DNA from: Minisyncoccota bacterium
GTDB taxonomy: Bacteria > Patescibacteriota > Minisyncoccia > RBG-13-40-8-A
DNA: 64,000 bases
Assembly: GCA_035528175.1 (NCBI GenBank)
Contig: DATKZC010000025.1
Coordinates: 431-64,430, forward strand
Reading direction: 5' to 3'
The notes beneath the pieces were generated by a model. The model had not been told where the DNA came from. It did no database searches and saw only the letters and a list, made by a program, of their open reading frames with translations. Positions within the stretch are counted from its first letter, which is position 1; every line of letters starts with the position of its first letter. Shown here piece after piece: positions 3,151-41,150 of the stretch. A program made the position numbers and the translations under genes.

Positions 3151-3519
3151 TTATTTATACTTATTAATCGCATCGCTTAATGCCTCAGTGACTAACTGAG
3201 CACAATGAATTTTTAATGGAGGCAATGTTCCCAATTCATCAGAAACATCCTGAAAATCAATTTTTAATGCCTGCTCTAATGTCTTGCCTTTTGCCAACTT
3301 ACAAATCATGTCTGAAGAAGCAATGGCTGAGGCGCAGCCCAATGTTTCGAATTTAATGCCTTTTATTCTCCTGCTTTTTTCGTCAATTTTCAAATATAAA
3401 GTCAGTAAATCTCCGCAACGCGGATTACCGGCTTTCCCAATCACATCCGGATTATTAATTTTACCAAAAAACTTGGGATTAGTAAAATGCTGCATTATTT
3501 GTTTGTTATAAATAGGCAT
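3151..3519 (-). CDS. nifU: NifU/IscU-type Fe-S cluster scaffold
   Basis: PRCGDLL, GCASAIASS and HCAQL give the three conserved Cys of U-type scaffolds. It sits directly downstream of the cysteine desulfurase. Confidence 0.8.
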   Translation of the reverse strand: MPIYNKQIMQHFTNPKFFGKINNPDVIGKAGNPRCGDLLTLYLKIDEKSRRIKGIKFETLGCASAIASSDMICKLAKGKTLEQALKIDFQDVSDELGTLPPLKIHCAQLVTEALSDAINKYK

Positions 3520-3523
3520 ATAT

Positions 3524-4717
3524 TTAACGTCCGGAAATTTTTCTTAGTTTTTCTACTACCCTAGGTAATATTTTAATAAAATAATCTATTTCTTTCACTG
3601 TTGTATATCTTCCCATACTCACCCTTAAACTTGAATGCGCGTCTAATTCGGGTAATCCCATTGCGATTAAAACATGCGACGGCATCAAAGAAGTTGAGGT
3701 GCAGGCCGAGCCGGTTGAAACAGCAATCCCTTCTTCGTTTAAAGCAATAACCAGGCTTTCCCCTTCAACTCCCAAAAAACTGAAATTAACGATGTTCGGC
3801 AGTCTTTCTTCTGGTCGTTTCGAACCATTAACCTTGCTGCCTTGGACGTTTTCTAGAACACCGTCTACTAATTTATTCCTTAATATTTCCATTTTTCGAA
3901 TTTCGGCTTTCGTATTTCGGATTTTTGCAATTACCTCCCCTATGCCGACAATACCGGCAACGTTTTCCGTCCCTGCCCTCAATTTCCATTCATGGCTCCC
4001 GCCAGTAATTAACGACGCAATCGGCGTACCCTCTTTAATATAGAGAATCCCAACTCCTTTTGGCCCATAAATTTTATGGGCTGAAAGTGTTAACAAATCA
4101 ACTTTCAAATCATCAACTCTACAATCCAGCCAATTCGCTGCCTGGACCGCGTCAACGTGGAAATAAGTCGGATGCTCTTCGTTTTTGTTGATTTCACTAA
4201 TAATTTTTCCGATTTTCTTAATTGACTGCACAGAACCAATCTCATTATTCGCGTACATTATTGAAACTAAATCAGTTTCCGGAGTAATCTCGGCTCTAAG
4301 ATCATCCAAATTTATCAAACCATCCGGCCCTACTGGCAAATAAGTTATTCTGATTCCTTCTTTTTCCAAATCCCTGCAGGTTTCCAACACTGCCTTGTGC
4401 TCTATTTTTGAAGTAATAATATGAATTCTCTCCCCTGCTTGTTTTTTATGTTTTAATGCTTTTATTAAGCCCCTAATCGCAAGATTATCGCTTTCTGACG
4501 CAGAGCCCGTAAAAACAATTTCCATTGGCTTGCAGTTTAAAAATCTAGCCACTTTTTTCCTGGCTTCATCGATCGCGCTACTTCCTTCCTGACCGAATTT
4601 ATGGATGGACGACGGATTGCCATATTTATCAGTTAAATACGGCATCATTTTTTTCAAAACCCCGGCATCCAATGGTGTCGTAGCAGCATAATCTAAATAA
4701 ATCCTTGACTTACTCAT
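3524..4717 (-). CDS. nifS: Cysteine desulfurase (class V aminotransferase, NifS/IscS type)
   Basis: YLDYAATTP start, SAHKIYGPKGVG PLP-lysine region and SGSACTS active-site Cys loop. Confidence 0.85.
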   Translation of the reverse strand: MSKSRIYLDYAATTPLDAGVLKKMMPYLTDKYGNPSSIHKFGQEGSSAIDEARKKVARFLNCKPMEIVFTGSASESDNLAIRGLIKALKHKKQAGERIHIITSKIEHKAVLETCRDLEKEGIRITYLPVGPDGLINLDDLRAEITPETDLVSIMYANNEIGSVQSIKKIGKIISEINKNEEHPTYFHVDAVQAANWLDCRVDDLKVDLLTLSAHKIYGPKGVGILYIKEGTPIASLITGGSHEWKLRAGTENVAGIVGIGEVIAKIRNTKAEIRKMEILRNKLVDGVLENVQGSKVNGSKRPEERLPNIVNFSFLGVEGESLVIALNEEGIAVSTGSACTSTSLMPSHVLIAMGLPELDAHSSLRVSMGRYTTVKEIDYFIKILPRVVEKLRKISGR

Positions 4718-8008: not shown

Positions 8009-9193
8009 TTATACGATTTTCACAAAAAATCGTTTTCCTTTTTGAATAATACTATTTCGATTAACTATAATGTCAATCGATTTTATTTCTTCGCCGTCAA
8101 TTTCAATCCCGCCCTGTTCAATCAATCTTTTTGCGTCTCCCCTACTCGTTGCTAAATTTGTCTCGACTAAAACATCAACAATATTCTTTCCTGCTAATTT
8201 ATATTCTTGGATTTCATCCGGTAAATCTTTTTTCTGGAAAACCGAGACAAAATATTTTTTGCCATTTTCTGCGCCTTTTTCTCCCCAATATATTTTTACA
8301 ATTTCAAAAGCCAATTCCATCTTAATATCGCGCGGATTTGTTGTTTCCAGTAATAATTGCTTTTCGTATCCTCTGATTTTATCCATATCAATGCGAGTAC
8401 AATGCACAAAATAAGTAATAATCAAATCATCAGAAATGCTCATCACTTTTCCAAACATATCTTCTGGTTTATCTGTAATATTAATTGTGTTTCCCCAACT
8501 TGAGCTCATTTTTCTGCTATCGGTTCCCAGAATCAAATTAGTCATTAAAATGTCCTGCGCTTCTTGTTTGTAATGTTCCTGTAGAGTCCTGCCTGCCAAT
8601 AAATTAAATCTCTGGTCTGTTCCGCCAAGTTCAACATCAACCTTAGTGGCAATACTGTCATAGCCCTGCATTAGAGGATATAATAACTCTCTCAAAGAAA
8701 CGTGCCTTCCTTCTTCTAATCTTTTTCTGATATTCTCTCTGGCAATGAACTCCCCTAATGAAAACTGGTTTGCTAATCTGCCGATTTCACTGAAATTAAG
8801 TTTTTTAAGCCATTTTGAATTATGTTCAATTTTGGCTTTTTTAATATTGATAATCTTTCCTGTCTGCTCAACATAATTTTTCATATTTTTCTTAATCTGC
8901 TCCTCGGAAAGCATCGGCCTTTCGGAGTCCTTGTCAGAAGTATCGCCTACCATGCCCGTAAAGTCGCCTATAACAAAAATAATCTCGTGGCCAAGCTCCT
9001 GAAAGTCCCTCATTTTCAGCAATGTGACTGCTCTACCAATATGGATATTAGGGCTGGTGGGGTCAATTCCAAGCTTTACTCTTAATTTTTTGCCAGACAT
9101 CAATTTCTCACGCAAGTGCTTTAAATCAATCACCTCGCTCACCCCACGGGTCAGTATCTCTTCTATTTTGTTTTCATCAACTTTTATACTCAT
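8009..9193 (-). CDS. tyrS: Tyrosyl-tRNA synthetase
   Basis: GIDPTSPNIHIGR (HIGH-class motif), KMSSS (KMSKS motif) and a C-terminal S4-like RNA-binding domain (RLIEQGGIEIDGEEI). Confidence 0.85.
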   Translation of the reverse strand: MSIKVDENKIEEILTRGVSEVIDLKHLREKLMSGKKLRVKLGIDPTSPNIHIGRAVTLLKMRDFQELGHEIIFVIGDFTGMVGDTSDKDSERPMLSEEQIKKNMKNYVEQTGKIINIKKAKIEHNSKWLKKLNFSEIGRLANQFSLGEFIARENIRKRLEEGRHVSLRELLYPLMQGYDSIATKVDVELGGTDQRFNLLAGRTLQEHYKQEAQDILMTNLILGTDSRKMSSSWGNTINITDKPEDMFGKVMSISDDLIITYFVHCTRIDMDKIRGYEKQLLLETTNPRDIKMELAFEIVKIYWGEKGAENGKKYFVSVFQKKDLPDEIQEYKLAGKNIVDVLVETNLATSRGDAKRLIEQGGIEIDGEEIKSIDIIVNRNSIIQKGKRFFVKIV

Positions 9194-13530: not shown

Positions 13531-13905
13531 TTATATCGCTTTCAATTTTCCTTGTTCGACTAATTTTTTATAAAACTCATCTATTAAGGCATCGTGGAAT
13601 TCATCCAAAAGATAAGGATTGTCAAGATTTTTGGCGACCTCCACCGCTTCAATAACTCCCTTTTCAAAAGCCACTTCAATAAGAAGCTGAATCTGTCTGT
13701 CTTTTGGCTGGTCTTTTAATTTCTGCGCTGTTTGTATAGTAGCCTGCTGCTGGCCTGCTGCTGGCTGAGCTGTGGCTATTTTTTCGGAAATAGCTTCTTT
13801 TAGAATTTCTTTTTGCTTTTCTGAACTCAATTCGCCTTCTTTGATTTCTGATTGTTTTAAAATCTCGGCTTTTCTTGCCTCAAAATTTTTATATATTTCT
13901 TCCAT
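13531..13905 (-). CDS. Small acidic/Q-rich helical protein of unknown function
   Basis: 124 aa, fills the gap immediately upstream of the fused ATPase (a 1-bp intergenic gap suggests co-transcription). No recognisable motif. Confidence 0.35.
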   Translation of the reverse strand: MEEIYKNFEARKAEILKQSEIKEGELSSEKQKEILKEAISEKIATAQPAAGQQQATIQTAQKLKDQPKDRQIQLLIEVAFEKGVIEAVEVAKNLDNPYLLDEFHDALIDEFYKKLVEQGKLKAI

Positions 13906-13943: not shown

Positions 13944-15737
13944 ATGAAAAAATATATACCTTTATTTTCGATTTTATTAATAATTCTGATGTTGGCCCTG
14001 GCAACCATCAGCCAAAAACAGGAATCAGCAATTATGGACGAGGTTGCCCACACTCCTGCGGGCTATTCTTATTTAACCCAAAAAGATATGCGTTTAAACC
14101 CAGAACATCCACCTTTATTAAAAGATTTGTCCGCCATTCCCGCACTTTTTATGAATAACCTGCCTGCTGGTAGGCAAGGTATCAACTTTCCGGAAGATTT
14201 AAAATCTTGGACAAGCGAAGTAAACAGTCAGTGGGATTTCGGGTTTAAATTTCTATACGAATCTAATAACAACGCTGATAAAATTATTTTCTGGTCCAGA
14301 ATTCCAATGCTTCTACTACTGATTCTTTTGGGGTTTTTCATTTATCGTTGGACAAAAGAATTATACGGAAAACTTCCCGCTCTGTTCGCAGTTTTCCTTT
14401 TTTCTTTTTCTCCAACATTCTTGGCGCACGGTCGTTATGTTACTACTGATGTCGGCGCTGCTTTCGCATTTTTCTTTGCTTCTTATTTCTTCATAAAATA
14501 CCTAAAGAACCAAAACGGAAAAAATCTGTTTTGGGCAGGAATAGCTTTTGGCATTGCCCAGCTTATAAAATTCTCTTTGATTCTGCTTGTCCCCTATTTT
14601 GGAATCTTGATTTTGATTTGGGTCTATATCAAATGGCGGGAAAACAGACAATTCTGGAAAACATTTTTTCATTATATTTTCAGATTTGCCCTGATTATGA
14701 TTATCGGCTATATTCTTGTTTATCCTGTTTATCTGTTCCATACTTATAATTACCCGCAGGAAAAACAAATTTCCGATACAACTTTCATTGCCTCGCAATT
14801 TCCAGTAAAACCAATCGGCGACCTGACAATTTGGATGTCTAAACAGCCAATTCTTAGGCCGTATGCCCAGTATGCTCTAGGATTATTTATGGTTTTCCAA
14901 AGAGCGACCGGTGGCAATACTACCTATTTCTTGGGAGATGTAACCAATAAGGGTTGGAAGAGTTATTTCCCGATTGTATATGCCATAAAAGAACCATTAA
15001 CATTACACATATTAACTATTATTGCTCTTTTGGTTCTGGCCGCTGGCGGCACTAGAAAAGCTTGGTCGCGAGCATTCGAGTCATTTTCAAATTTTCTGAA
15101 AAACCATTTTACAGAAATTGCAATGTTGATTTTCTTGGCAATTTACTGGGGCGCAAGTATTACCAGCAACTTAAATATCGGCATACGTCATATCCTCCCC
15201 ACATTTCCATTTATTTATGTGCTTGTTTCTGGCCAGATAAGGAAATTATTCAATCAAATCCATAATAAAAAAAGAGTTTTTATTACTTGTTGCCTATTAC
15301 TCGGCGCTTTATTGGCATGGTATGCGTTTTCATCCTTATCAATCTATCCTCATTACCTCGCTTATTTTAACGAATTAATTGGCGGCGCTAAAAACGGTTA
15401 TATATATGTAACCGACTCCAATCTCGACTGGGGACAAGACTTAAAACGTCTAGCAGAATGGGTTGAGAAAAATAACGTCCAAAAAATAAAAATAGATTAT
15501 TTCGGCGGGGCAACTGCGAAATATTATTTAGGAGACAAAGCTGAAGAATGGCATGCGGATTATGATCCGCAAAAAGCAAAAAACAGCTGGTTAGCTGTTT
15601 CCGCAACTTTTCTGCAGCAGAATCGCGCCATAGCGACAAAGGGATTTGAAAGAAGAACTGATTACTATGTCTGGCTTAACCAATACGAACCAGTAACCGT
15701 AATCGGGAATTCAATTTTTGTATATTATATTCCGTAA
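13944..15737 (+). CDS. PMT/ArnT-like polyprenyl-phosphate-sugar dependent glycosyltransferase (GT39/GT83 fold)
   Basis: N-terminal TM followed by DEVAHTPAG (the DE motif of PMT-family GT-C enzymes in the first extracytoplasmic loop), about 11 TM helices and a C-terminal soluble domain. Confidence 0.6.
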   Translation: MKKYIPLFSILLIILMLALATISQKQESAIMDEVAHTPAGYSYLTQKDMRLNPEHPPLLKDLSAIPALFMNNLPAGRQGINFPEDLKSWTSEVNSQWDFGFKFLYESNNNADKIIFWSRIPMLLLLILLGFFIYRWTKELYGKLPALFAVFLFSFSPTFLAHGRYVTTDVGAAFAFFFASYFFIKYLKNQNGKNLFWAGIAFGIAQLIKFSLILLVPYFGILILIWVYIKWRENRQFWKTFFHYIFRFALIMIIGYILVYPVYLFHTYNYPQEKQISDTTFIASQFPVKPIGDLTIWMSKQPILRPYAQYALGLFMVFQRATGGNTTYFLGDVTNKGWKSYFPIVYAIKEPLTLHILTIIALLVLAAGGTRKAWSRAFESFSNFLKNHFTEIAMLIFLAIYWGASITSNLNIGIRHILPTFPFIYVLVSGQIRKLFNQIHNKKRVFITCCLLLGALLAWYAFSSLSIYPHYLAYFNELIGGAKNGYIYVTDSNLDWGQDLKRLAEWVEKNNVQKIKIDYFGGATAKYYLGDKAEEWHADYDPQKAKNSWLAVSATFLQQNRAIATKGFERRTDYYVWLNQYEPVTVIGNSIFVYYIP

Positions 15738-17497: not shown

Positions 17498-18830
17498 TGT
17501 TTTTTGGTTTCATTGTCGGAAATAAAATTATTTCCCGTACTGTTCTTGAATTAGTCAATAAAACCGTTAATCTATCAATGCCAACGCCAATGCCCGCAGC
17601 TGGCGGCATACCGTATTCCAACGCTTCAATAAAGTCCTTATCATACTGGTGTGCTTCCAGATTTCCTCCCCTCCTCTCTATTTCCTGCGCTTTAAATCTC
17701 TCCACTTGGTCAAATGGGTCATTTAATTCGGAAAATCCATTGGCAATTTCCAATCCATTAACAATTAATTGAAATCTCTCTACTTTTTGATTCTTGCCCT
17801 GAGCTTGTCGAAGAGGTTTCGCCAGAGGCGAAATTTCAATCGGGTGATTGATTATAAAAGTAGGTTCTTTAATTTTTGCAAAAACTTCTTTTTCATCTTT
17901 ATTACCGACAATTTTGCTGTATTCCGCTTTTTTAAACTTTTTTCCGAAAACCTTCTTATCCAGTGAACCTAATAATTTTTCCGTAAAATCCATCATTTTA
18001 TTATAATCCCAATAAGCTGCGTAAAACTCCAGCATAGTGAATTCTGGATTATGTTCCCTGTCCATGCCTTCGTTTCTAAAATTTCTGTTTAATTCATAAA
18101 CTTTTTCAAATCCACCAACTAATAACCTTTTTAAATACAATTCCGGCGCAATTCTTAAATATAAATCCATATCCAAGGCATTCAAATGCGTCTCAAACGG
18201 CCTAGCATTTGCTCCACCAGCCATTGTTTGTAGCATTGGAGTTTCAACTTCCAAAAATCCATTTTCATCCAATAATTTTCTGATTTTTTTGATAATTTCC
18301 GACCGCTTTATAAATTTATCTTTAACTTCTTTATTTATCATTAAATCCAGATATCTTTTTCTGAACCTTTCTTCAACATCTTCTAACCCATACCATTCAC
18401 TCGGCAATGGCAATAAAGATTTGGTTAAAATTTTCCAATCCGAAACCAATAAAGTTTTCTCGCCTTTTTTCGTTAAAAATAATTTACCAGTTGCTTGGAT
18501 AAAATCGCCGATATCCACATTTTCCAAAAACAGCTTATACTTCTTTTCGCCAATTTTGTCTTTTTTAAAATAAACTTGAATCTGCACACTTGTGGTGAGC
18601 GAAGTCGAACCATCTTCGATATGCGCAAAAGTCGAACCCCCGTGCTCCCTAATTGAACGCACCCTGCCAACTAAAGTAATTCTCTTATTTGCCAGTTTTT
18701 TGAAATCATTAATTGCCTCCTTATTTGTATGCGTACGCAAAACCTCAGCCGGATACGCATTAATCCCAGCTTTTTTCAAATTTTCAAGTTTTTCTATTCT
18801 AATTTTCCTTATTTCTTCTAAATTATCCAT
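17490..18830 (-). CDS. lysS: Lysyl-tRNA synthetase, class II
   Basis: N-terminal OB-fold anticodon-binding region, class II motifs (YELNRNFRNEGMDREHNPEFTMLEFY, GIGVGIDRLTVLLT). Confidence 0.9.
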   Translation of the reverse strand: MDNLEEIRKIRIEKLENLKKAGINAYPAEVLRTHTNKEAINDFKKLANKRITLVGRVRSIREHGGSTFAHIEDGSTSLTTSVQIQVYFKKDKIGEKKYKLFLENVDIGDFIQATGKLFLTKKGEKTLLVSDWKILTKSLLPLPSEWYGLEDVEERFRKRYLDLMINKEVKDKFIKRSEIIKKIRKLLDENGFLEVETPMLQTMAGGANARPFETHLNALDMDLYLRIAPELYLKRLLVGGFEKVYELNRNFRNEGMDREHNPEFTMLEFYAAYWDYNKMMDFTEKLLGSLDKKVFGKKFKKAEYSKIVGNKDEKEVFAKIKEPTFIINHPIEISPLAKPLRQAQGKNQKVERFQLIVNGLEIANGFSELNDPFDQVERFKAQEIERRGGNLEAHQYDKDFIEALEYGMPPAAGIGVGIDRLTVLLTNSRTVREIILFPTMKPKNND

Positions 18831-18856
18831 ATGATTTTATTATAGCATAATTTTAA

Positions 18857-18899
18857 AATAAAAAAACCCGCTGTTCGCTTTTGCTACTTAGCGGGTTTG
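18857..18899 (-). terminator. Rho-independent terminator for the small membrane-protein gene
   Basis: CCCGCT...AGCGGG stem (18867-18896). On the minus strand it is followed by UUUUUUUAUUUU. Confidence 0.6.
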
Positions 18900-18902
18900 A
18901 GT

Positions 18903-19199
18903 TCACTTTCCGGAAAGCCAGGTAAAAACCCCGGTCAGGGTTTGTTTGGAAAATATAAGGCACAGAATCTCAAATCCTCGATCCAAATTTCGATATATAA
19001 CAATAAAAAAGCCAACGAGCAGCGCCATGCCTAAAACAAAGACTGTCGGAGCAATGATCACGGTCATGATAAACTCAAAAATCATGGTGAGCATAGCTTC
19101 GTTGGATGCCACATGCCAGACTCCCAAGAACATGGCGAAGAGAATCGCCACGACTAAGGGAATCCTCCAAAGCATCCTGTTTCTCTGAATCAATTCCAT
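18903..19199 (-). CDS. Small (98 aa) hydrophobic membrane protein, 2-3 TM helices
   Basis: Near-consensus SD (AAAGGAGGA, 7 nt upstream), an upstream TTGACA box, its own terminator, and a sequence that is almost entirely TM helices. Confidence 0.5.
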   Translation of the reverse strand: MELIQRNRMLWRIPLVVAILFAMFLGVWHVASNEAMLTMIFEFIMTVIIAPTVFVLGMALLVGFFIVIYRNLDRGFEILCLIFSKQTLTGVFTWLSGK

Positions 19200-19296
19200 T
19201 GTTTCCTCCTTTGTTTTTTTATTGTAATTTAAAACTGATAATAATCAGTTTTATGACTATTATCAGCTTAGCACATACAATTATTTTTGTCAATGG
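19200..19296 (-). promoter_or_regulatory. Promoter, perfect palindrome and SD for the small membrane-protein gene
   Basis: On the minus strand: TTGACA (plus coordinates 19288-19293), about 18-nt spacer, TAAGCT. The perfect 9-bp/4-nt-loop palindrome AAAACTGAT-AATA-ATCAGTTTT (19231-19252) is followed by a third TGATAATAG half-site (19255-19267), then the AAAGGAGGA SD. Confidence 0.5.
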
Positions 19297-19689
19297 TTAT
19301 TCTTTTTCCTCCTCTACTACTTTGTCCTCTCGATTAGAAGCAAAAATATATGCTTCATGAACCAAGGAACCATTAATCTGTGTATCCTCTGATATTTTGG
19401 TTTCGGATTTAAAGTCTAATAACGCTTGTATTATATGATCTTCTTTTCGAAAAATCCCAATTCGTGCTATGGATTTTCTTTCTTCTGAATCAAGATGACC
19501 ATCTAATAATCCTTTCGTAAATTTAAATATTTCTCCTCTATTTGCTTCTGTAGCCCAAGAAGCACATAATATAACCGTCCATTTGTCTGTTAATTCATCT
19601 ATTTTCATAATCGCAAATAAAACAACATCACCTTTTGAGGCTTTAATCTCGGATAATATCTTCTGAAATTTTTCTGTTATATTTCCCAT
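19297..19689 (-). CDS. Unknown 130-aa protein, downstream partner of the HEPN-like gene, ending in an acidic tail
   Basis: 13-bp overlap with the upstream gene. No GS...DxD nucleotidyltransferase motif. C-terminal EDKVVEEEKE. Confidence 0.35.
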   Translation of the reverse strand: MGNITEKFQKILSEIKASKGDVVLFAIMKIDELTDKWTVILCASWATEANRGEIFKFTKGLLDGHLDSEERKSIARIGIFRKEDHIIQALLDFKSETKISEDTQINGSLVHEAYIFASNREDKVVEEEKE

Positions 19690-20117
19690 TGTTTTTTTAT
19701 ACGATTAATTAAATTTTTAAGATTATTATGCACCCTAGCTGTTTTAATCTCATCCCAACCAGGATCTAAAGTATATCTTAATGTAGGCCAATTTCCATGA
19801 AACTCCTGTGTGAATCCTGACCAATCTTCATATAACTCTCCATCGTAGCCCAAAACATCTACCATACCGGATAATATTAATAAGGTTTCAAATTCGTGAG
19901 CTCTAAAAAAGGTAGGTATTTTTTCAGACGAAAAATTTTTTTGAGGACAATCTGGATAATCAGATAAGTGAAGAGTTTTACAAATAACTGCCTTTAGAGC
20001 ACATTCTAATGCATAGCCCATCATATATGCAGCCATGCCCCAATCCTTTGCAGATATAAGTGTATTAATTGTCGTTAATCGAGCATCTGTAATATTGCGA
20101 AGATCTTGTGATGTCAT
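19677..20117 (-). CDS. HEPN-like domain protein
   Basis: AKDWGMAAYMMGYALECALKAVI resembles the first HEPN helix (A..EkalKA). Later FRAHEFETLLIL (H.L..L) and NWPTLRYTLDP (R-Y-x-x-P C-terminal HEPN signature). By-eye assignment only. Confidence 0.45.
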   Translation of the reverse strand: MTSQDLRNITDARLTTINTLISAKDWGMAAYMMGYALECALKAVICKTLHLSDYPDCPQKNFSSEKIPTFFRAHEFETLLILSGMVDVLGYDGELYEDWSGFTQEFHGNWPTLRYTLDPGWDEIKTARVHNNLKNLINRIKKQWEI

Positions 20118-20160: not shown

Positions 20161-21702
20161 CTACTTTTTTTTGTCTTCCCCTACTGCTTTTTTGATTGCT
20201 TCACGAATGCCAACAAGGTCAATTTCCGGCTTTTGTTTTTTAATCGGCTGAGATTGAGTATTTGGTTTTTTCTCTCTTTCTTTTTGTAAACAGGACGAAC
20301 AATAAACCGGCCTTACTCCATCTGGTTTAAAAGCAACTTTGGTTTTTTTGCCGCAATCAGAACAAACTGCCTCAAATTTTTTCGCTTCTTCTTCTGTTTC
20401 TGCCACTTCACTCCATCTAGCAATTTTTTCTTCCACTGCTTTTCGCGATATGGTATATCTTTCGCGGGAGAGTTTAATAATTTTATCCTCAAAAGATTTT
20501 TTAGGAACCGTAGATGGAGCCATGGTCTGAGCGCTGAAAGCCCGAGAAGCAACACCATCAATCATTAGTTTTAAATAAATAGTATACTTTGTTAAATTGA
20601 CTAAATCATCGGCAATAAATACTGGCAGAAATTCCCTTTCCAAAAACTCGGCATCATCTGCGCCAACACGGAAAGTAATCAGAGTTCCGACATTGCCGAA
20701 AATCGCATCTCTTACTTTAGTATTTTTGCCTTTATCGCCCATAGAATCTAATTGAGCAACATATTGATGGGCTAAAGTCAGACAGAGATGATATTTTCTG
20801 GCCTCAGAAAGAATGCTCGCAAATGCGTCTGTGGCAAAAGTTTGGAATTCATCAACATAAAGATAAAAATCTTTTCTTTCGTGTTCAAGCACATCCACCC
20901 TACTCATAGCCGCAAGTTGTAATTTGGTTATTACCAAAGCTCCCAACAACTGACTGGCGTCCTCACCAACTCTACCTTTTGAAAGATTGACAATTAAAAT
21001 CTTCCCTTGGTCCATTATCTCCCGCATATCAATTGACGACTTAACTTGTCCGATAATATTCCTGATTAAGGGAGTAGAAATAAATTGCCCGACCTTATTT
21101 TGAATCGGCGCTACTGCTTCTTCCCTGAATCGGTCAGGATATTTGGCAAATTCATTTGTCCAAAACGCTTTTACGCTGGGATCAGTAACCTTTTCCAGAA
21201 CTTTTTGGCGATAATCCTTGTCAGCTAAAAGACGATTAACACCCAAAAGAGTTGAGCCGGGATATTCCAGTAATGATAAAATCGCATTTCTTAAAATATA
21301 TTCCATCCTTGCGCTCCAAACATCAGGCCAGATTTTCTTAAATACGCCCATTAAACCAGAAACAACCAAATGACGGTATTCTGGCTCAACATTCTCCATA
21401 ATATTAAAAGTAATAGGATATTCCAAATCAGCAGGATTGAAATAAATTATATCATTCACCCTGTTAGACGGAACAAAATCAAGCATTGTTTCCGCAAAAT
21501 CTCCATGCGGATCAACAATTGCTACGCCATGCCCATTTTGGATATCTTGAATTGCCATATTTTTCAGAAGTTCTGATTTCCCTGTACCGGTTTTACCAAC
21601 GACATAGACATGCTGGCGCCTGTCTTTTGTTTTTATGCCAAATTTTGTCCGTTTGTTGCGGAAATTTGTTTCGCCTAAAATTGTTATTTCGTTTTCAATC
21701 AT
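20161..21702 (-). CDS. TraD/TraG/VirD4-like P-loop ATPase with a C-terminal zinc ribbon, stand-alone
   Basis: YVVGKTGTGKSE Walker A, VDPHGDF, YLYVDEFQTF Walker B, TLAHQY...FGNVGTLITFRVGADDAEFL. The C-terminal CSDCGKKTKVAFKPDGVRPVYCSSC is a CxxC-x17-CxxC ribbon. Confidence 0.6.
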   Translation of the reverse strand: MIENEITILGETNFRNKRTKFGIKTKDRRQHVYVVGKTGTGKSELLKNMAIQDIQNGHGVAIVDPHGDFAETMLDFVPSNRVNDIIYFNPADLEYPITFNIMENVEPEYRHLVVSGLMGVFKKIWPDVWSARMEYILRNAILSLLEYPGSTLLGVNRLLADKDYRQKVLEKVTDPSVKAFWTNEFAKYPDRFREEAVAPIQNKVGQFISTPLIRNIIGQVKSSIDMREIMDQGKILIVNLSKGRVGEDASQLLGALVITKLQLAAMSRVDVLEHERKDFYLYVDEFQTFATDAFASILSEARKYHLCLTLAHQYVAQLDSMGDKGKNTKVRDAIFGNVGTLITFRVGADDAEFLEREFLPVFIADDLVNLTKYTIYLKLMIDGVASRAFSAQTMAPSTVPKKSFEDKIIKLSRERYTISRKAVEEKIARWSEVAETEEEAKKFEAVCSDCGKKTKVAFKPDGVRPVYCSSCLQKEREKKPNTQSQPIKKQKPEIDLVGIREAIKKAVGEDKKK

Positions 21703-21703
21703 A

Positions 21704-22993
21704 TTATTGGACTATAGGAAGCTCGCTGGGCGGTCCGCCTTTCTTGGCTTCAATCTTAGATAATCTTTCAGCTTCAACAAACTTCCCAGGAAGATGGAAA
21801 ATTGTTGCCAGTTCCTCAATATTAAAAACAAATCCCCTAGTTTTGAGCTTATGAAACGGAAAAAATCTTTTCTTGAAAATACCCACAAAAAATCTTCTCT
21901 GTCCCGGCTCTCTTTTTCTTTTAAAGATTTTCCCCCTTCCAGGAGTGGATTTTTTATTGATTTTAAAACCATTTAGATTTTGGGTATTAAATTGTCTGAA
22001 AAATCCAGCTACTACTGTTGGCTTGTCCTTGGAAAAAAGATCTTTAGGCGCCCAATACATAAATCTTATCATTGTTTTAAATCCTATTTTTCCAATATTC
22101 CTTTCAATTGCCAAAACAACTTCTTTCTGACCTGGGGTTAAAAACGGCATAACTTTTTCGACTTTCTTTTCCCCGCCAACAGCACCCTCCTCGCCCCCCA
22201 AGCCAAAAAATCTTGCAATACCCTGACCCAACGCTTCAAGCCAGCTTCTAGCTTCTTCCACTATCATTAATCCTTTCTTGCTTTCTTTTACTTCTTTGCC
22301 AATTATATTTCCAACCAAATTTTCCCCATCTTTTATCCATTGTTTATCGGTAACTGGACTGATTGGGCTGATTAAGATATGAATGGCAATGCTTTCTTTC
22401 GGATTCAAGCTGCTTAAAAATTCAAAAAGTCCGGCAATGGGGTCAGTTCTTTCTTCTGCTTCTTTTTCCTCAAAAAACACCGGATAAGTCCTAATAGGAT
22501 AAGCATCCTGCTTGGTTAAAATCAATTCTGTGCCCCAGGCATCAAAATCCGCGGTCGGAGTGCCGGGCGGAATACTGTTTATATAATCCTCCGCATCTAT
22601 TATTTCTGCTTGTGGGTATTGGGCGTAAAGATGTGATTCAACAAGATTTCTGTATTTTGCTTCGGTTCTGATATAAAAATGGATCTCCCCGCCATGCCCA
22701 AGCATTTCAATGCTAAACCATGGAGGAAGGTCGCCTTTTATATATTTCTCTTTAAATTTTCTCCCCTTTTCAGCAGCGTGCAAGCCAGCAAAAAACTGCT
22801 CCATGGCTTTCGGCGTTTTAATTAGATCTCTAGGAAATTTTACTTCCAAAATAATCCATTCCAAACCTCGTATATATTTAACAATAAGATAATTCACCCA
22901 GAGATGCTTTAAGAATAAAAAAAGAGCTATTGGTGCGATAATCCACCAATAACTCACAAATATATCCCTATAAATATTAAGGATTTCAGTCAT
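21704..22993 (-). CDS. Membrane-anchored partner protein of the TraD/VirD4-like ATPase
   Basis: N-terminal TM pair, then a soluble domain with the same outline as the N-terminal 380 aa of the fused 817-aa protein (EVKFPRD / LIKIPRET, HFYIRTEAKY / SFYLAAPKKY). A 1-bp gap separates it from the ATPase gene. Confidence 0.5.
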   Translation of the reverse strand: MTEILNIYRDIFVSYWWIIAPIALFLFLKHLWVNYLIVKYIRGLEWIILEVKFPRDLIKTPKAMEQFFAGLHAAEKGRKFKEKYIKGDLPPWFSIEMLGHGGEIHFYIRTEAKYRNLVESHLYAQYPQAEIIDAEDYINSIPPGTPTADFDAWGTELILTKQDAYPIRTYPVFFEEKEAEERTDPIAGLFEFLSSLNPKESIAIHILISPISPVTDKQWIKDGENLVGNIIGKEVKESKKGLMIVEEARSWLEALGQGIARFFGLGGEEGAVGGEKKVEKVMPFLTPGQKEVVLAIERNIGKIGFKTMIRFMYWAPKDLFSKDKPTVVAGFFRQFNTQNLNGFKINKKSTPGRGKIFKRKREPGQRRFFVGIFKKRFFPFHKLKTRGFVFNIEELATIFHLPGKFVEAERLSKIEAKKGGPPSELPIVQ

Positions 22994-27353: not shown

Positions 27354-27563
27354 TTATTTCTTGATATAATCAAATCTCGGGATTTTTTTGCCATCTATTT
27401 CAACTTCTTCCAAAAACATTTTTAAAGGGCGTACCCAAATCTGATTGTCGCCATATAATGCCCGATACATAACCATATCTTCTTGCGTTTCACTATGCTT
27501 GGCTATACCAATCACCTCGTATTCATTTCCTTTATAATGTTTATATTTCCCTAATTTAATCAT
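27354..27563 (-). CDS. DUF1653-family small protein
   Basis: YKHYKGNEYEVIGIAKHSETQEDMVMYRALYGD matches the DUF1653 core. Confidence 0.55.
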   Translation of the reverse strand: MIKLGKYKHYKGNEYEVIGIAKHSETQEDMVMYRALYGDNQIWVRPLKMFLEEVEIDGKKIPRFDYIKK

Positions 27564-27641
27564 ATTATTTTTGCTACAATATTTTTATTCCTCTTAGCTC
27601 GAAATTTGACAATTATTCAAGATGGGATTAATATAAAATCA

Positions 27642-27756
27642 TTCGTGTCAGCGTAGGACAATGTCCGAATAACGAGGCGTGCGTGAGACGCCTACAAGAG
27701 ATAAAATCTCGGAGACTGACCCTTCAGCCAGTTATTAAAACGCTGGCTTTTTTTTA
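27642..27756 (+). ncRNA. Candidate small structured RNA with its own promoter and intrinsic terminator
   Basis: TTGACA (27606-27611), 17-nt spacer, TAATAT (27629-27634). About 115 nt with nested hairpins: GUCAG...CUGAC closing stem, GGAC-AAU-GUCC, AGGCGU-GCGUGAG-ACGCCU and GAGAU-AAA-AUCUC. It ends in an AGCCAG-N11-CUGGCU hairpin plus U8 (27726-27756). No plus-strand ORF follows. Confidence 0.35.
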
Positions 27757-40901: not shown

Positions 40902-41150
40902 ATGAAAAAAGAGGTAAATTCAAACTCAATATACACTACCAATGAAACCAAAGAACTCTTGAAAGTAAGCGACAGCACCATAAAGCGCCTGCTCAAAAAA
41001 GGTATCATTAAAGCCAATAAAGTCGGTGGTCAATACAGAATTATGGGAAAGGAAATCCTCCGACTCGTCTCGCCTAAAGTTGAAAGAAAGGCAGTATCAA
41101 TTTATCAGAAGCTTAAAAAAGATATAAAAACTAAAATTAAGAAGTGGTAA
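40902..41150 (+). CDS. Excisionase-family (HTH_17-like) small DNA-binding protein
   Basis: ETKELLKVSDSTIKRLLKKGIIKANKVGGQYRI: the HTH and the conserved ...(R/K)xGxxxRI wing of Xis/AlpA-like excisionase-family regulators. K-rich tail. Confidence 0.5.
   Translation: MKKEVNSNSIYTTNETKELLKVSDSTIKRLLKKGIIKANKVGGQYRIMGKEILRLVSPKVERKAVSIYQKLKKDIKTKIKKW

What the first reader, a model, noticed from the sequence alone, without database searches (positions are those of the whole stretch)
18857..19296. Small hydrophobic protein gene with consensus promoter, perfect operator-like palindrome, strong SD and its own terminator
Most genes in this window lack recognisable SD sequences. This 98-aa protein of 2-3 TM helices has AAAGGAGGA 7 nt from its ATG, a TTGACA box, and between them a perfect 9-bp inverted repeat (AAAACTGAT-AATA-ATCAGTTTT) plus a third TGATAATAG half-site. 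It also has a dedicated intrinsic terminator. The arrangement looks like a tightly regulated stand-alone small membrane peptide gene, possibly a toxin-like, holin-like or stress peptide. It sits directly downstream of the HEPN-like pair, so it may be their effector or part of the same cassette.
Basis: seen in the sequence. Interest (0 to 1): 0.5.

Follow-up and report, generated by a model that had tools for sequence, protein, structure and literature searches.

The report
Portable promoter-leader cassette, small membrane gene
The flagged gene is a real, self-contained 440-base expression unit in a Paceibacterota (candidate phyla radiation) genome; it is the only one of 57 genes in the window with a classical ribosome-binding site, and the first 37 bases after its promoter are nearly identical in three other related genomes, once in front of an unrelated gene.

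Summary
On the minus strand lie TTGACA, a 17-nt spacer, an extended -10 (TGcTAAGCT), a perfect 10-bp/4-nt palindrome, AAAGGAGGA, a 98-aa membrane ORF (18903-19199) and a strong terminator. It is the only one of 57 genes in the window with a real Shine-Dalgarno sequence. The others are mostly leaderless.

1. The promoter and leader recur in three other Patescibacteria loci in different contexts. A 37-nt core that contains the palindrome differs by 1.4%, against 34-46% in flanking non-coding segments. In one locus it drives a non-homologous soluble protein, so the module is portable.

2. The 98-aa protein is a short, divergent member of an undescribed membrane family. The family has 58 cluster representatives, conserved N- and C-termini and a variable glycine-zipper-like middle. 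Short form: dN/dS 0.30.

3. The HEPN-like pair upstream is an independent two-gene module and is absent from the other loci.

I cannot tell whether the palindrome works as a 5' RNA stem-loop (favoured) or as a DNA operator. The protein's function is unknown: no holin, toxin, Pfam, PDB or fold match. Moderately interesting, mainly because it is an SD-led, horizontally shuffled cassette in an SD-free genome.

The parts
19288..19293 (-). -35 hexamer TTGACA; invariant in all four copies of the module
19265..19273 (-). Extended -10, TGc-TAAGCT, 17 nt after the -35. The other copies have TGn-TATACT or TGn-TAAACT.
19230..19266 (-). Near-invariant 37-nt core, CTGATAATAGTCATAAAACTGATTATTATCAGTTTTA. Mean pairwise difference among 4 loci is 1.4%, against 34% in the promoter spacer and 46% in the core-to-SD segment.
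19257..19266 (-). Half-site copy CTGATAATAG, overlapping the -10 and the predicted +1 (19257/19258). Part of a general motif, TAnnCT-N-ATAATAG, of this promoter class.
19230..19253 (.). Perfect palindrome with 10-bp arms and a 4-nt loop. As RNA it forms a stem-loop of about -9.5 kcal/mol that starts about 5 nt from the predicted 5' end.
19204..19212 (-). Shine-Dalgarno AAAGGAGGA; GGAGG ends 5 nt before the ATG. It is unpaired in folds of the leader alone. It is the only genuine SD in the window.
18903..19199 (-). CDS of 98 aa, a 2-3 TM membrane protein. It is a short member of an uncharacterised Patescibacteria family. GC3 is 0.545, against 0.21-0.39 for neighbouring genes.
18855..18898 (-). 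Intrinsic terminator, AAACCCGCT-17 nt-AGCGGGTTT followed by T7-A-T4. It is homologous to the terminators of family members in L003 and L017.

Best explanation
The region 18855-19293 (minus strand) is a self-contained accessory-gene expression cassette of about 440 bp. It has been exchanged horizontally among Paceibacterota/Patescibacteria genomes.

Its parts, in order:
1. A near-consensus sigma-70-type promoter (TTGACA, 17 nt, TGn-extended -10).
2. A leader of about 60 nt.
3. A canonical Shine-Dalgarno sequence.
4. A small membrane-protein gene.
5. An intrinsic terminator that is conserved across the protein family.

The promoter-leader part is a portable module. The same sequence drives the homologous membrane gene in two other loci and a non-homologous soluble protein in a third.

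Most likely mechanism (inferred, not shown): transcription starts about 7 nt after the -10, so the palindrome is transcribed. It forms a 10-bp stem-loop about 5 nt from the 5' end of the mRNA. This element, together with its invariant flank, acts at the RNA level as a 5' stabiliser and/or as a recognition site for a sequence-specific trans-acting factor. The A-rich, unstructured spacer and the SD then give SD-dependent translation in a genome whose other genes are leaderless or SD-less.

The cargo is a short form of a family of small polytopic membrane proteins with conserved N- and C-terminal segments and a variable, usually glycine-zipper-like, middle. Its biochemical role is unknown.
For: Shown:
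- Homology boundaries. Window versus L001 runs from 19294 to 18884, from the -35 to within the terminator loop. Window versus L003 covers the 5' module plus the first ~30 codons (19294-19113) and the last codons plus terminator (18921-18854). Window versus L005 covers 19294-19197 only and ends at the ATG.
- Different contexts. L003 lies between nrdG and comEC. L001 and L005 are arrays of small orphan genes. The window copy lies between a HEPN-like pair and lysS.
- Different cargo. In L005 the module drives a 128-aa soluble Cys-rich orphan protein.
- Constraint by segment among the 4 copies: -35 0%, spacer 34%, -10 19%, 37-nt core 1.4%, core-to-SD 46%. Synonymous divergence of the ORF between window and L001 is 0.36. 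A shared housekeeping gene is only about 70% identical between the L005 organism and the window.
- AAGGAGG is kept in all copies although its flanks diverge.
- The only substitution in the palindrome is C to T in the left arm in L001. It keeps a G-U pair in the sense RNA but breaks the DNA symmetry.
- The hairpin is the dominant feature of all four leader folds, and the SD is left free in three of them; in L005 the AAGG of the SD is paired in a second, weak helix.
- Composition: ORF GC3 0.545 against 0.21-0.39 for neighbours, which suggests foreign origin.
- Family: 58 cluster representatives at E <= 1e-3. Four further members looked up (L016-L019) are also stand-alone genes with TTGACA/TTGACT-type promoters and leaders of 30-100 nt; three of the four have a clear SD (L019 has only a weak AAAGG), and terminators were seen where checked (L016, L017, L019).
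- SD census: 1 of 57 genes in the window. Housekeeping genes in L003 and L005 also lack an SD.

Literature:
- The anti-SD motif is detectable in only about 48% of Parcubacteria 16S rRNAs (PMC9297842).
- Reuse of promoters in front of unrelated genes is a described phenomenon (PMC3488235).
Against: - The transcription start is predicted, not measured.
- With four nearly identical copies there is no compensatory covariation, so an RNA structure cannot be proven.
- Invariance of the loop and of the unpaired 5' flank is more than a purely structural hairpin would need.
- 5'-proximal hairpins in the leaders of other family members are not better than shuffled controls (z -0.45 to -1.5).
- The window copy has the weakest -10 (TAAGCT), so it may be less active.
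- The 16S rRNA of this organism is not in the window, so it is only inferred that it carries an anti-SD.
Confidence: 0.5

Rival explanations
1. DNA operator. The palindrome (about +6 to +29) and the degenerate copy that overlaps the -10 and +1 are tandem binding sites for a dimeric repressor encoded elsewhere. The repressor keeps a very strong promoter shut until a signal arrives, as with lac O1 or the LexA boxes of colicin operons.
For: - The palindrome is perfect, with 10-bp arms, and a second similar site lies 18 bp upstream (13 of 16 positions, I3).
- The position is typical for repressors.
- Invariance at the sequence level includes the loop and the flank.
- The promoter has a consensus -35 plus an extended -10.
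- The cargo is a hydrophobic protein that could be harmful if over-made.
Against: - No DNA-binding gene is linked in any of the four loci.
- No second copy of the site was found in the 64-kb window or in about 100 kb of related loci, so no regulon is visible.
- The upstream 'half-site' is mostly the general TAnnCT-N-ATAATAG motif, which is present in promoters without the palindrome.
- The one substitution breaks DNA symmetry but preserves RNA pairing.
- By eye, the site does not match the consensus boxes of Fur, LexA, ArgR, CodY or NrdR (recalled consensus sequences, not a formal test).
Confidence: 0.3
2. Type I toxin-like locus. The small hydrophobic protein is a membrane toxin. Its mRNA is kept translationally inert by long-range pairing that hides the SD and/or by an antisense RNA against the conserved leader.
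For: - Full-length mRNA folds are more stable than shuffled controls (z -3.2 and -2.65).
- In the minimum-energy folds the A-rich leader and SD pair with a U-rich coding stretch (I1).
- The gene is stand-alone and has its own terminator.
Against: - The pairing partner of the SD differs between the window and L001.
- The minimum-energy structure has a frequency of about 0 in the ensemble.
- No conserved antisense promoter was found. The promoter-like hexamers on the opposite strand are made by the half-sites themselves and point away from the gene.
- The protein has 98 aa and family members reach up to 252 aa, well above typical type I toxins.
- The same leader drives a soluble protein in L005.
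Confidence: 0.1
3. Effector or third gene of the upstream HEPN-like pair, that is, one cassette or operon.
For: - Adjacency and the same strand: the 130-aa gene ends 3 nt before the -35.
Against: - The gene has its own promoter.
- The module occurs without the pair in L001, L003 and L005, and the pair occurs without the gene in L009, L011 and L013.
- Composition differs sharply: GC3 0.55 against 0.21-0.22.
Confidence: 0.03

Closest known systems
Putative mobile promoters / promoter reuse (Matus-Garcia, Nijveen & van Passel 2012, PMC3488235; PMC3575422)
   Same: A highly similar promoter-containing sequence sits upstream of non-homologous genes and is shared between different genomes.
   Different: - The conserved unit here extends through a 60-nt leader and the SD.
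- Its most conserved part is downstream of the -10.
- It lies in uncultivated Patescibacteria that otherwise do not use leaders or SDs.
- Only one copy is seen per genome fragment.
5'-terminal stem-loop mRNA stabilisers (E. coli ompA leader, B. subtilis aprE/ermC leaders; from general knowledge)
   Same: A stable hairpin lies within a few nucleotides of the 5' end, followed by an unstructured A/U-rich spacer and a strong SD.
   Different: - Those elements work through structure and tolerate sequence change, whereas here the sequence itself is invariant.
- No half-life data exist for this transcript.
Repressor operators just downstream of the -10 (lac O1, LexA boxes of colicin/SOS promoters; from general knowledge)
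   Same: A palindrome lies at about +6 to +29 of a strong promoter, with a second weaker site over the -10 and +1.
   Different: - No cognate regulator was found and there is no further site in the sequence at hand.
- The site does not fit the known box consensus sequences by eye.
Integron gene-cassette arrays
   Same: In L001 and L005 the module lies in arrays of small, mostly orphan ORFs plus a HicAB pair, separated by a repeated ~33-nt element.
   Different: - Each cassette carries its own promoter.
- The repeat shows no R''/L''-L'/R' inverted-repeat structure by eye (not folded or formally tested).
- No integrase is seen.
- The window copy has no flanking repeat.
Type I toxins (Hok, TisB, Fst; from general knowledge)
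   Same: A small hydrophobic protein encoded by a stand-alone gene with a structured mRNA.
   Different: - The protein is longer and polytopic.
- No antisense RNA was found.
- The leader is shared with a soluble cargo.
Rare SD-bearing genes in SD-poor genomes (for example rpsU in Bacteroidetes; recalled from memory, not checked here)
   Same: An isolated strong SD in a genome that otherwise avoids SDs.
   Different: - The Bacteroidetes case concerns a ribosomal protein gene and autoregulation.
- Here the SD sits on accessory, horizontally shuffled cassette genes.

Membership tests
Uncharacterised Patescibacteria small membrane protein family (defined here by the profile) | Significant profile match plus the conserved N-terminal segment (M..IQR..MLWRIPLV.AILFA.FWG.WY) and C-terminal segment (F/L-FS...W.....WL.GK) | tested here: met
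   -.
- 58 representatives at E <= 1e-3.
- Alignments A5 and A6.
Uncharacterised Patescibacteria small membrane protein family (defined here by the profile) | Nearly invariant loop and TM2 residues (VP...LPF.xSRWWD; P36, L51, S56, R57, D60 in P0003 numbering) and GLxxGLxx repeats | tested here: not met
   - The window protein and P0002 lack this loop and the repeats.
- They are a shortened subtype that is still under purifying selection (dN/dS 0.30).
Mobile / reused promoter | A homologous promoter sequence upstream of non-homologous genes | tested here: met
   - L005 module against the window module: 87% identity over 98 nt, ending at the ATG.
- The cargo is unrelated.
Mobile / reused promoter | Several copies within one genome | tested here: inconclusive
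   - One copy in the 64-kb window.
- A related promoter is duplicated before adjacent genes in L017.
- Complete genomes were not available.
Repressor-operator pair | A palindromic site overlapping or abutting the core promoter | tested here: met
Repressor-operator pair | A cognate DNA-binding regulator and/or further sites forming a regulon | tested here: not met
   - No linked regulator in the four loci.
- No other site in the window or in the loci.
- An unlinked regulator cannot be excluded.
Phage holin | A match to holin families, an adjacent endolysin, and a phage context | tested here: not met
   - No Pfam or PHROG hit for the window protein.
- One of 60 family members gives a sub-threshold Phage_holin_3_1 hit at E = 0.005.
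- The neighbours are lysS and the HEPN-like pair.
- No viral, phage or plasmid DNA matches.
- No BFVD fold match for the family model built on P0003.
Type I toxin-antitoxin | A hydrophobic toxin, usually under 60 aa, plus an overlapping or adjacent antisense RNA gene | tested here: not met
   - The protein has 98 aa and family members have 82-252 aa.
- No conserved antisense promoter.
- No Rfam match.
Type I toxin-antitoxin | Toxicity on expression | not testable with these tools
   This needs an expression experiment.
Integron gene cassette | An attC recombination site at the cassette end and an IntI integrase at the array head | tested here: not met
   - No repeat flanks the window copy.
- By eye, the 33-nt repeat in L001, L003 and L005 has no attC-like paired R''/R' cores; it was not folded or tested formally.
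- No integrase is present in the sequence at hand. The arrays are cut by contig ends.
Known cis-regulatory RNA (Rfam) | A covariance-model match at or above the gathering score | tested here: not met
   - The best match is the S15-Flavobacteria leader at 28.3 bits against a threshold of 46.5, E = 0.54.
- Only a tRNA passes the threshold in the window.

The most novel reading that the evidence does not exclude
SD-free, leaderless Parcubacteria/Paceibacterota may keep a separate, SD-dependent expression channel for a pool of horizontally shuffled accessory gene cassettes that carry their own promoters. These cassettes would be small orphan membrane and zinc-ribbon proteins, arranged in arrays punctuated by a 33-nt repeat. 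The invariant 37-nt leader core would be the handle through which a dedicated factor switches this channel on or off. That would amount to a new cassette system and a dual translation-initiation regime in one cell.
Probability: 0.15. Interest if true: 0.75.

Novelty: new variant of a known kind. Interest (0 to 1): 0.5.

Why it matters
Candidate phyla radiation bacteria are uncultivated, and almost nothing is known about how they control gene expression. Part of the Parcubacteria is reported to lack the anti-SD motif in 16S rRNA.

This locus offers a short, sharply defined, strongly constrained promoter-leader element that travels between genomes and between cargo genes. It carries the only Shine-Dalgarno sequence in 64 kb. 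That gives two things:
- A concrete handle to ask whether these organisms still use SD-dependent initiation, and for which genes.
- A ready-made candidate expression element for future genetic tools in this group.

It also brings to light an undescribed membrane-protein family of 58 sequence clusters, with a confident predicted fold that has no known relative.

Tried and rejected
- Family searches. Pfam, NCBIfam, PHROGs and PADLOC gave nothing for the 98-aa protein. Pfam on P0002 and P0003 and on all 60 family members gave only scattered sub-threshold hits.
- Rfam gave no family for the leader.
- DNA scans. Viral contigs gave 0 hits for three patterns. Phage and plasmid BLAST gave no match. 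The genome and metagenome scans each gave one true hit and one chance match inside a coding region (L006, L007).
- tRNA-derived att site. I considered this for the 33-nt repeat because of GGTTCAAATCC in L003. ARAGORN finds no tRNA there, and the T-arm pairing does not hold by eye.
- Integron attC. I considered this for the same repeat. No inverse-core/core pair is visible (by eye, not tested formally).
- Known operator boxes. I compared the palindrome by eye with the Fur, Zur/PerR, LexA, ArgR, CodY, NrdR and Rex consensus boxes. The spacing does not fit. This rests on memory only and is not a formal test.
- Shared 5' hairpin design. I looked for one across family leaders. Hairpins are present in some (L005 gene 3, L016, L019), but none is better than shuffled controls.
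- Long-range SD sequestration. It is predicted in the full-length mRNA folds, but the pairing partner is not conserved.
- C-terminal tail of the 130-aa neighbour. I examined whether it is a relic of the 33-nt repeat. Tails of its homologues are variable, so this is inconclusive.

Full report
**1. The observation**

The gene is on the minus strand. Reading 5' to 3' on that strand, the elements are:
- The stop codon of the 130-aa gene (19297-19299).
- TTGACA (19288-19293).
- A 17-nt spacer that ends in TGc, followed by TAAGCT (19265-19273), which is an extended -10.
- CTGATAATAG (19257-19266).
- The palindrome TAAAACTGAT-TATT-ATCAGTTTTA (19230-19253).
- An A-rich stretch.
- AAAGGAGGA (19204-19212).
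- ATG (19199), then 98 codons and TGA (18903).
- Five nucleotides later, the terminator AAACCCGCT-17 nt-AGCGGGTTT plus a run of seven T (18855-18898).

The palindrome has 10-bp arms. It occurs once in the window, with none expected in shuffles even at 3 mismatches. It is one of only three perfect hairpin palindromes of 10 bp or more in 64 kb. The terminator folds at -22.2 kcal/mol, z = -2.8.

The consensus scanner listed neither the promoter nor the terminator. The window's -10 hexamer matches only 3 of 6 positions, and the terminator loop is 17 nt.

**2. The gene is the translational odd one out**

I tabulated the 40 nt upstream of 57 genes. Only this gene has an SD (AAGGAGG at 5 nt). The few other 4-6-nt matches lie 9-16 nt away or inside the preceding gene. 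A regex scan for GGAGG followed by a start codon on both strands found no other intergenic case.

Genes that follow an intergenic gap typically carry TGnTATAAT 5-9 nt before the ATG. An example is lysS immediately downstream, with TGcTATAAT at 18839-18847 and ATG at 18830. This is the signature of leaderless mRNAs.

The same holds in related loci. In L003, tuf, fusA, rpsL, rpsG, rpsJ and rplC have no SD, and only two inserted small genes have AAGGAGG.

The organism is a Candidatus Paceibacterota MAG, according to the source name of the identical 130-aa protein. Tsurumaki et al. report that the anti-SD motif is detectable in only 48% of Parcubacteria 16S rRNAs (PMC9297842).

**3. The promoter-leader is a conserved, portable module**

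The word-indexed protein search found only three relatives:
- P0001, which is the window sequence itself on a JGI contig.
- P0002, 78% identical.
- P0003, 161 aa, in which only the first ~34 and last ~19 residues are alike.

Their loci show the same upstream sequence. A DNA pattern taken from the leader found one more true copy, in a Patescibacteria MAG (L005, JBMORO010000011.1), and a duplicate of L003 (L008). The other two hits, L006 and L007, are partial chance matches inside coding regions.

In L005 the module is followed by a different gene, a 128-aa soluble, Cys-rich orphan protein. BLASTN homology to the window stops at the ATG (19294-19197).

Contexts differ in every case:
- Window: HEPN-like pair, then the cassette, then lysS.
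- L003: nrdD-nrdG, then the cassette, then a second cassette, then comEC.
- L001 and L005: arrays of small genes.

**4. Where the constraint lies**

Mean pairwise difference among the four independent copies (alignment A3):

| Segment | Difference |
|---|---|
| -35 | 0% |
| 17-nt spacer | 34% |
| -10 (TAAGCT / TATACT / TATACT / TAAACT, always preceded by TGn) | 19% |
| 37-nt core CTGATAATAGTCATAAAA(C/T)TGATTATTATCAGTTTTA | 1.4% |
| Core to SD | 46% |

AAGGAGG is kept in all four copies.

For scale, synonymous divergence of the ORF between window and L001 is 0.36. A radical-SAM gene shared by L005 and the window is about 70% identical at the DNA level. So the core is far more conserved than neutral sites, and more than the promoter itself.

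The single change, C to T in the left arm in L001, leaves a G-U pair in the sense transcript but breaks the DNA palindrome.

**5. RNA element or operator?**

With the start predicted 7-8 nt after the -10 (19258/19257), the palindrome occupies about +6 to +29. The spacing of leaderless promoters in the same genomes supports this prediction.

All four leaders fold into the same 10-bp stem-loop, at about -9.5 kcal/mol, five nucleotides from the 5' end. The SD is left free in three of them. In L005 the AAGG of the SD is paired in a second, weak helix.

I favour an RNA-level role, as a 5' stabiliser and/or the binding site of a specific factor, for four reasons:
- The substitution in L001 is compatible with G-U pairing.
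- No regulator gene is linked in any of the four loci.
- No second site exists in the sequence at hand.
This motif occurs in three different cassette promoters of L001, two of which have no palindrome.

Against a purely structural hairpin:
- The loop and the unpaired flank are invariant too.
- 5' hairpins in other family leaders are not better than shuffled controls.

A DNA operator therefore remains a serious rival (0.3).

Full-length mRNA folds suggest that the SD could pair with a U-rich coding stretch (z -3.2 and -2.65). The partner is not conserved between window and L001, so I give the type I-toxin-like model 0.1.

**6. The protein**

A profile search without a word index found 58 cluster representatives at E <= 1e-3, 82-252 aa long. 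Alignments A5 and A6 define a family with this layout:
- An N-terminal TM helix (MLWRIPLV.AILFALFWGIWY).
- A loop with VP...LPFA.SRWWD.
- A second TM helix and an acidic turn.
- A variable number of GLxxGLxx repeats.
- A C-terminal F-FS...W.....WL.GK.

With 60 sequences, AlphaFold gives a confident model for P0003 (pLDDT 86, pTM 0.67): TM1, a beta-hairpin, TM2, a long helical hairpin and a C-terminal helix. No PDB or viral fold relative was found, no Pfam or PDB sequence match, and no source gives the proteins a name.

The window protein and P0002 are a short subtype that lacks the loop motif and the repeats. The subtype is nevertheless under purifying selection (dN/dS 0.30). Its GC3 (0.545) is far above that of its neighbours (0.21-0.39), which is consistent with acquisition from elsewhere.

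Four further members (L016-L019) are also stand-alone genes with TTGACA/TTGACT promoters and leaders. Three of them have a clear SD, whereas L019 has only a weak AAAGG. Terminators were seen where I checked (L016, L017, L019). None of the four has the 37-nt core. The terminator of the L017 member is homologous to the window's.

**7. The HEPN-like pair is separate**

The 146-aa protein gives a weak HEPN hit (E = 0.035), a PADLOC PDC-M28A hit (3e-5) and a phrog_5737 hit (5e-8). It overlaps the 130-aa gene.

Homologues of this pair occur as the same overlapping two-gene unit next to groEL, murG or other genes in L009, L011 and L013. They are never followed by the small gene.

**8. Surroundings of the module elsewhere**

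In L005, L001 and L003 the cassettes are separated by a ~33-nt repeat, AAACAGGTTCTAATAGCGTCCAYTCTCCGACCC. It lies just upstream of the -35 or after the previous terminator. The window has no copy.

A second leader type is likewise shared by non-homologous genes in L001 and L003. In L017 one promoter is duplicated before adjacent genes.

This looks like a pool of accessory cassettes that carry their own promoters. It is reminiscent of integron arrays and of 'mobile promoters' (PMC3488235). However, I saw no attC-like structure (by eye only), no integrase and no link to phages or plasmids.

**9. Verdict**

It is a horizontally shuffled expression cassette whose promoter-leader is a portable, strongly constrained module. 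Its cargo is a short member of an undescribed membrane-protein family.

Still unresolved:
- Whether the palindrome acts as RNA or as DNA.
- What the protein does.
- Whether the host ribosome reads the SD.

Novelty: a new variant of known kinds (reused promoter, 5' leader element, stand-alone small membrane gene). The unusual twist is that it is the only SD-led gene in a leaderless genome. Interest: 0.5.

Noticed in passing
window-wide, e.g. 18839-18847 (lysS), upstream of 855-1280, 8009-9193, 13531-13905, 13944-15737, 19677-20117: Most genes that follow an intergenic gap have a TGnTATAAT-type -10 only 5-9 nt before the ATG and no SD. The genome therefore appears to run largely on leaderless mRNAs and extended -10 promoters.
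   Followed up: partly
L005 48, 678, 1655, 2314, 3123; L001 942, 1313, 1783, 2957; L003 10545: A ~33-nt repeat, AAACAGGTTCTAATAGCGTCCAYTCTCCGACCC, punctuates arrays of small accessory genes (an orphan, a GIY-YIG protein, a 2TM protein with a zinc ribbon, a 2'-5' RNA ligase, a lycopene-cyclase-like protein, HicBA). It sometimes carries insertions. The window has no copy. Its function is unknown.
   Followed up: partly
L001 1-69 and 1818-1886: A 69-nt sequence is repeated at 97% identity. One copy is inserted inside a 33-nt repeat unit, and the other lies at the contig end. It may be a small mobile or structured element.
   Followed up: no
L001 930-1055 and L003 10535-10656: A second conserved promoter-leader type (TTGACA, 17 nt, TATACT/TATTCT, then GTTTTTAGTT...TTTGA...AAAGGAGGA) precedes two proteins (65 aa and 124 aa) that show no evident similarity by eye (not formally compared). 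Leader portability is therefore probably not unique to the palindromic module.
   Followed up: partly
L017 2812-2876 and about 3477-3540: The same promoter, TTGACAGGATTTTTGATTTGTGATAAG(A/G)T, is duplicated in front of two adjacent genes. The first of these is a member of the membrane-protein family (P0014).
   Followed up: no
L018 2685-2940: A family member (P0040) lies downstream of a tRNA gene that is followed by about four tandem ~22-nt repeats (..CCCTGGATTCTAGAGACATC..). This suggests an integration hot spot.
   Followed up: no
window 19297-20117: The 146-aa protein (weak HEPN hit; PADLOC PDC-M28A; phrog_5737) and the overlapping 130-aa gene form a two-gene module. It is conserved in other Patescibacteria contigs in unrelated contexts, so it is a candidate toxin-antitoxin or defence pair. 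It has a leaderless promoter (TAgTATAAT 5 nt before the ATG).
   Followed up: partly
window 20161-22993: A TraG/VirD4/HerA-like ATPase of 513 aa with a C-terminal treble-clef zinc finger (PF23477, 8e-15; TrwB_AAD_bind, 2e-11). It is preceded by a 429-aa protein with no Pfam match.
   Followed up: no
window 18994-19019 versus 19206-19231: The A-rich leader including the SD is 81% complementary over 26 nt to a U-rich stretch inside the CDS. It pairs with that stretch in the full-length minimum-energy fold (z -3.2). The partner is not conserved in L001.
   Followed up: partly
window 27355-27561 (-) and 40903-41150 (+): Small ORFs lie in otherwise 'empty' intergenic gaps. The second looks like a helix-turn-helix protein with a leaderless promoter. 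A GC-rich, possibly structured stretch lies at about 27640-27745 (-) and has no Rfam match.
   Followed up: no
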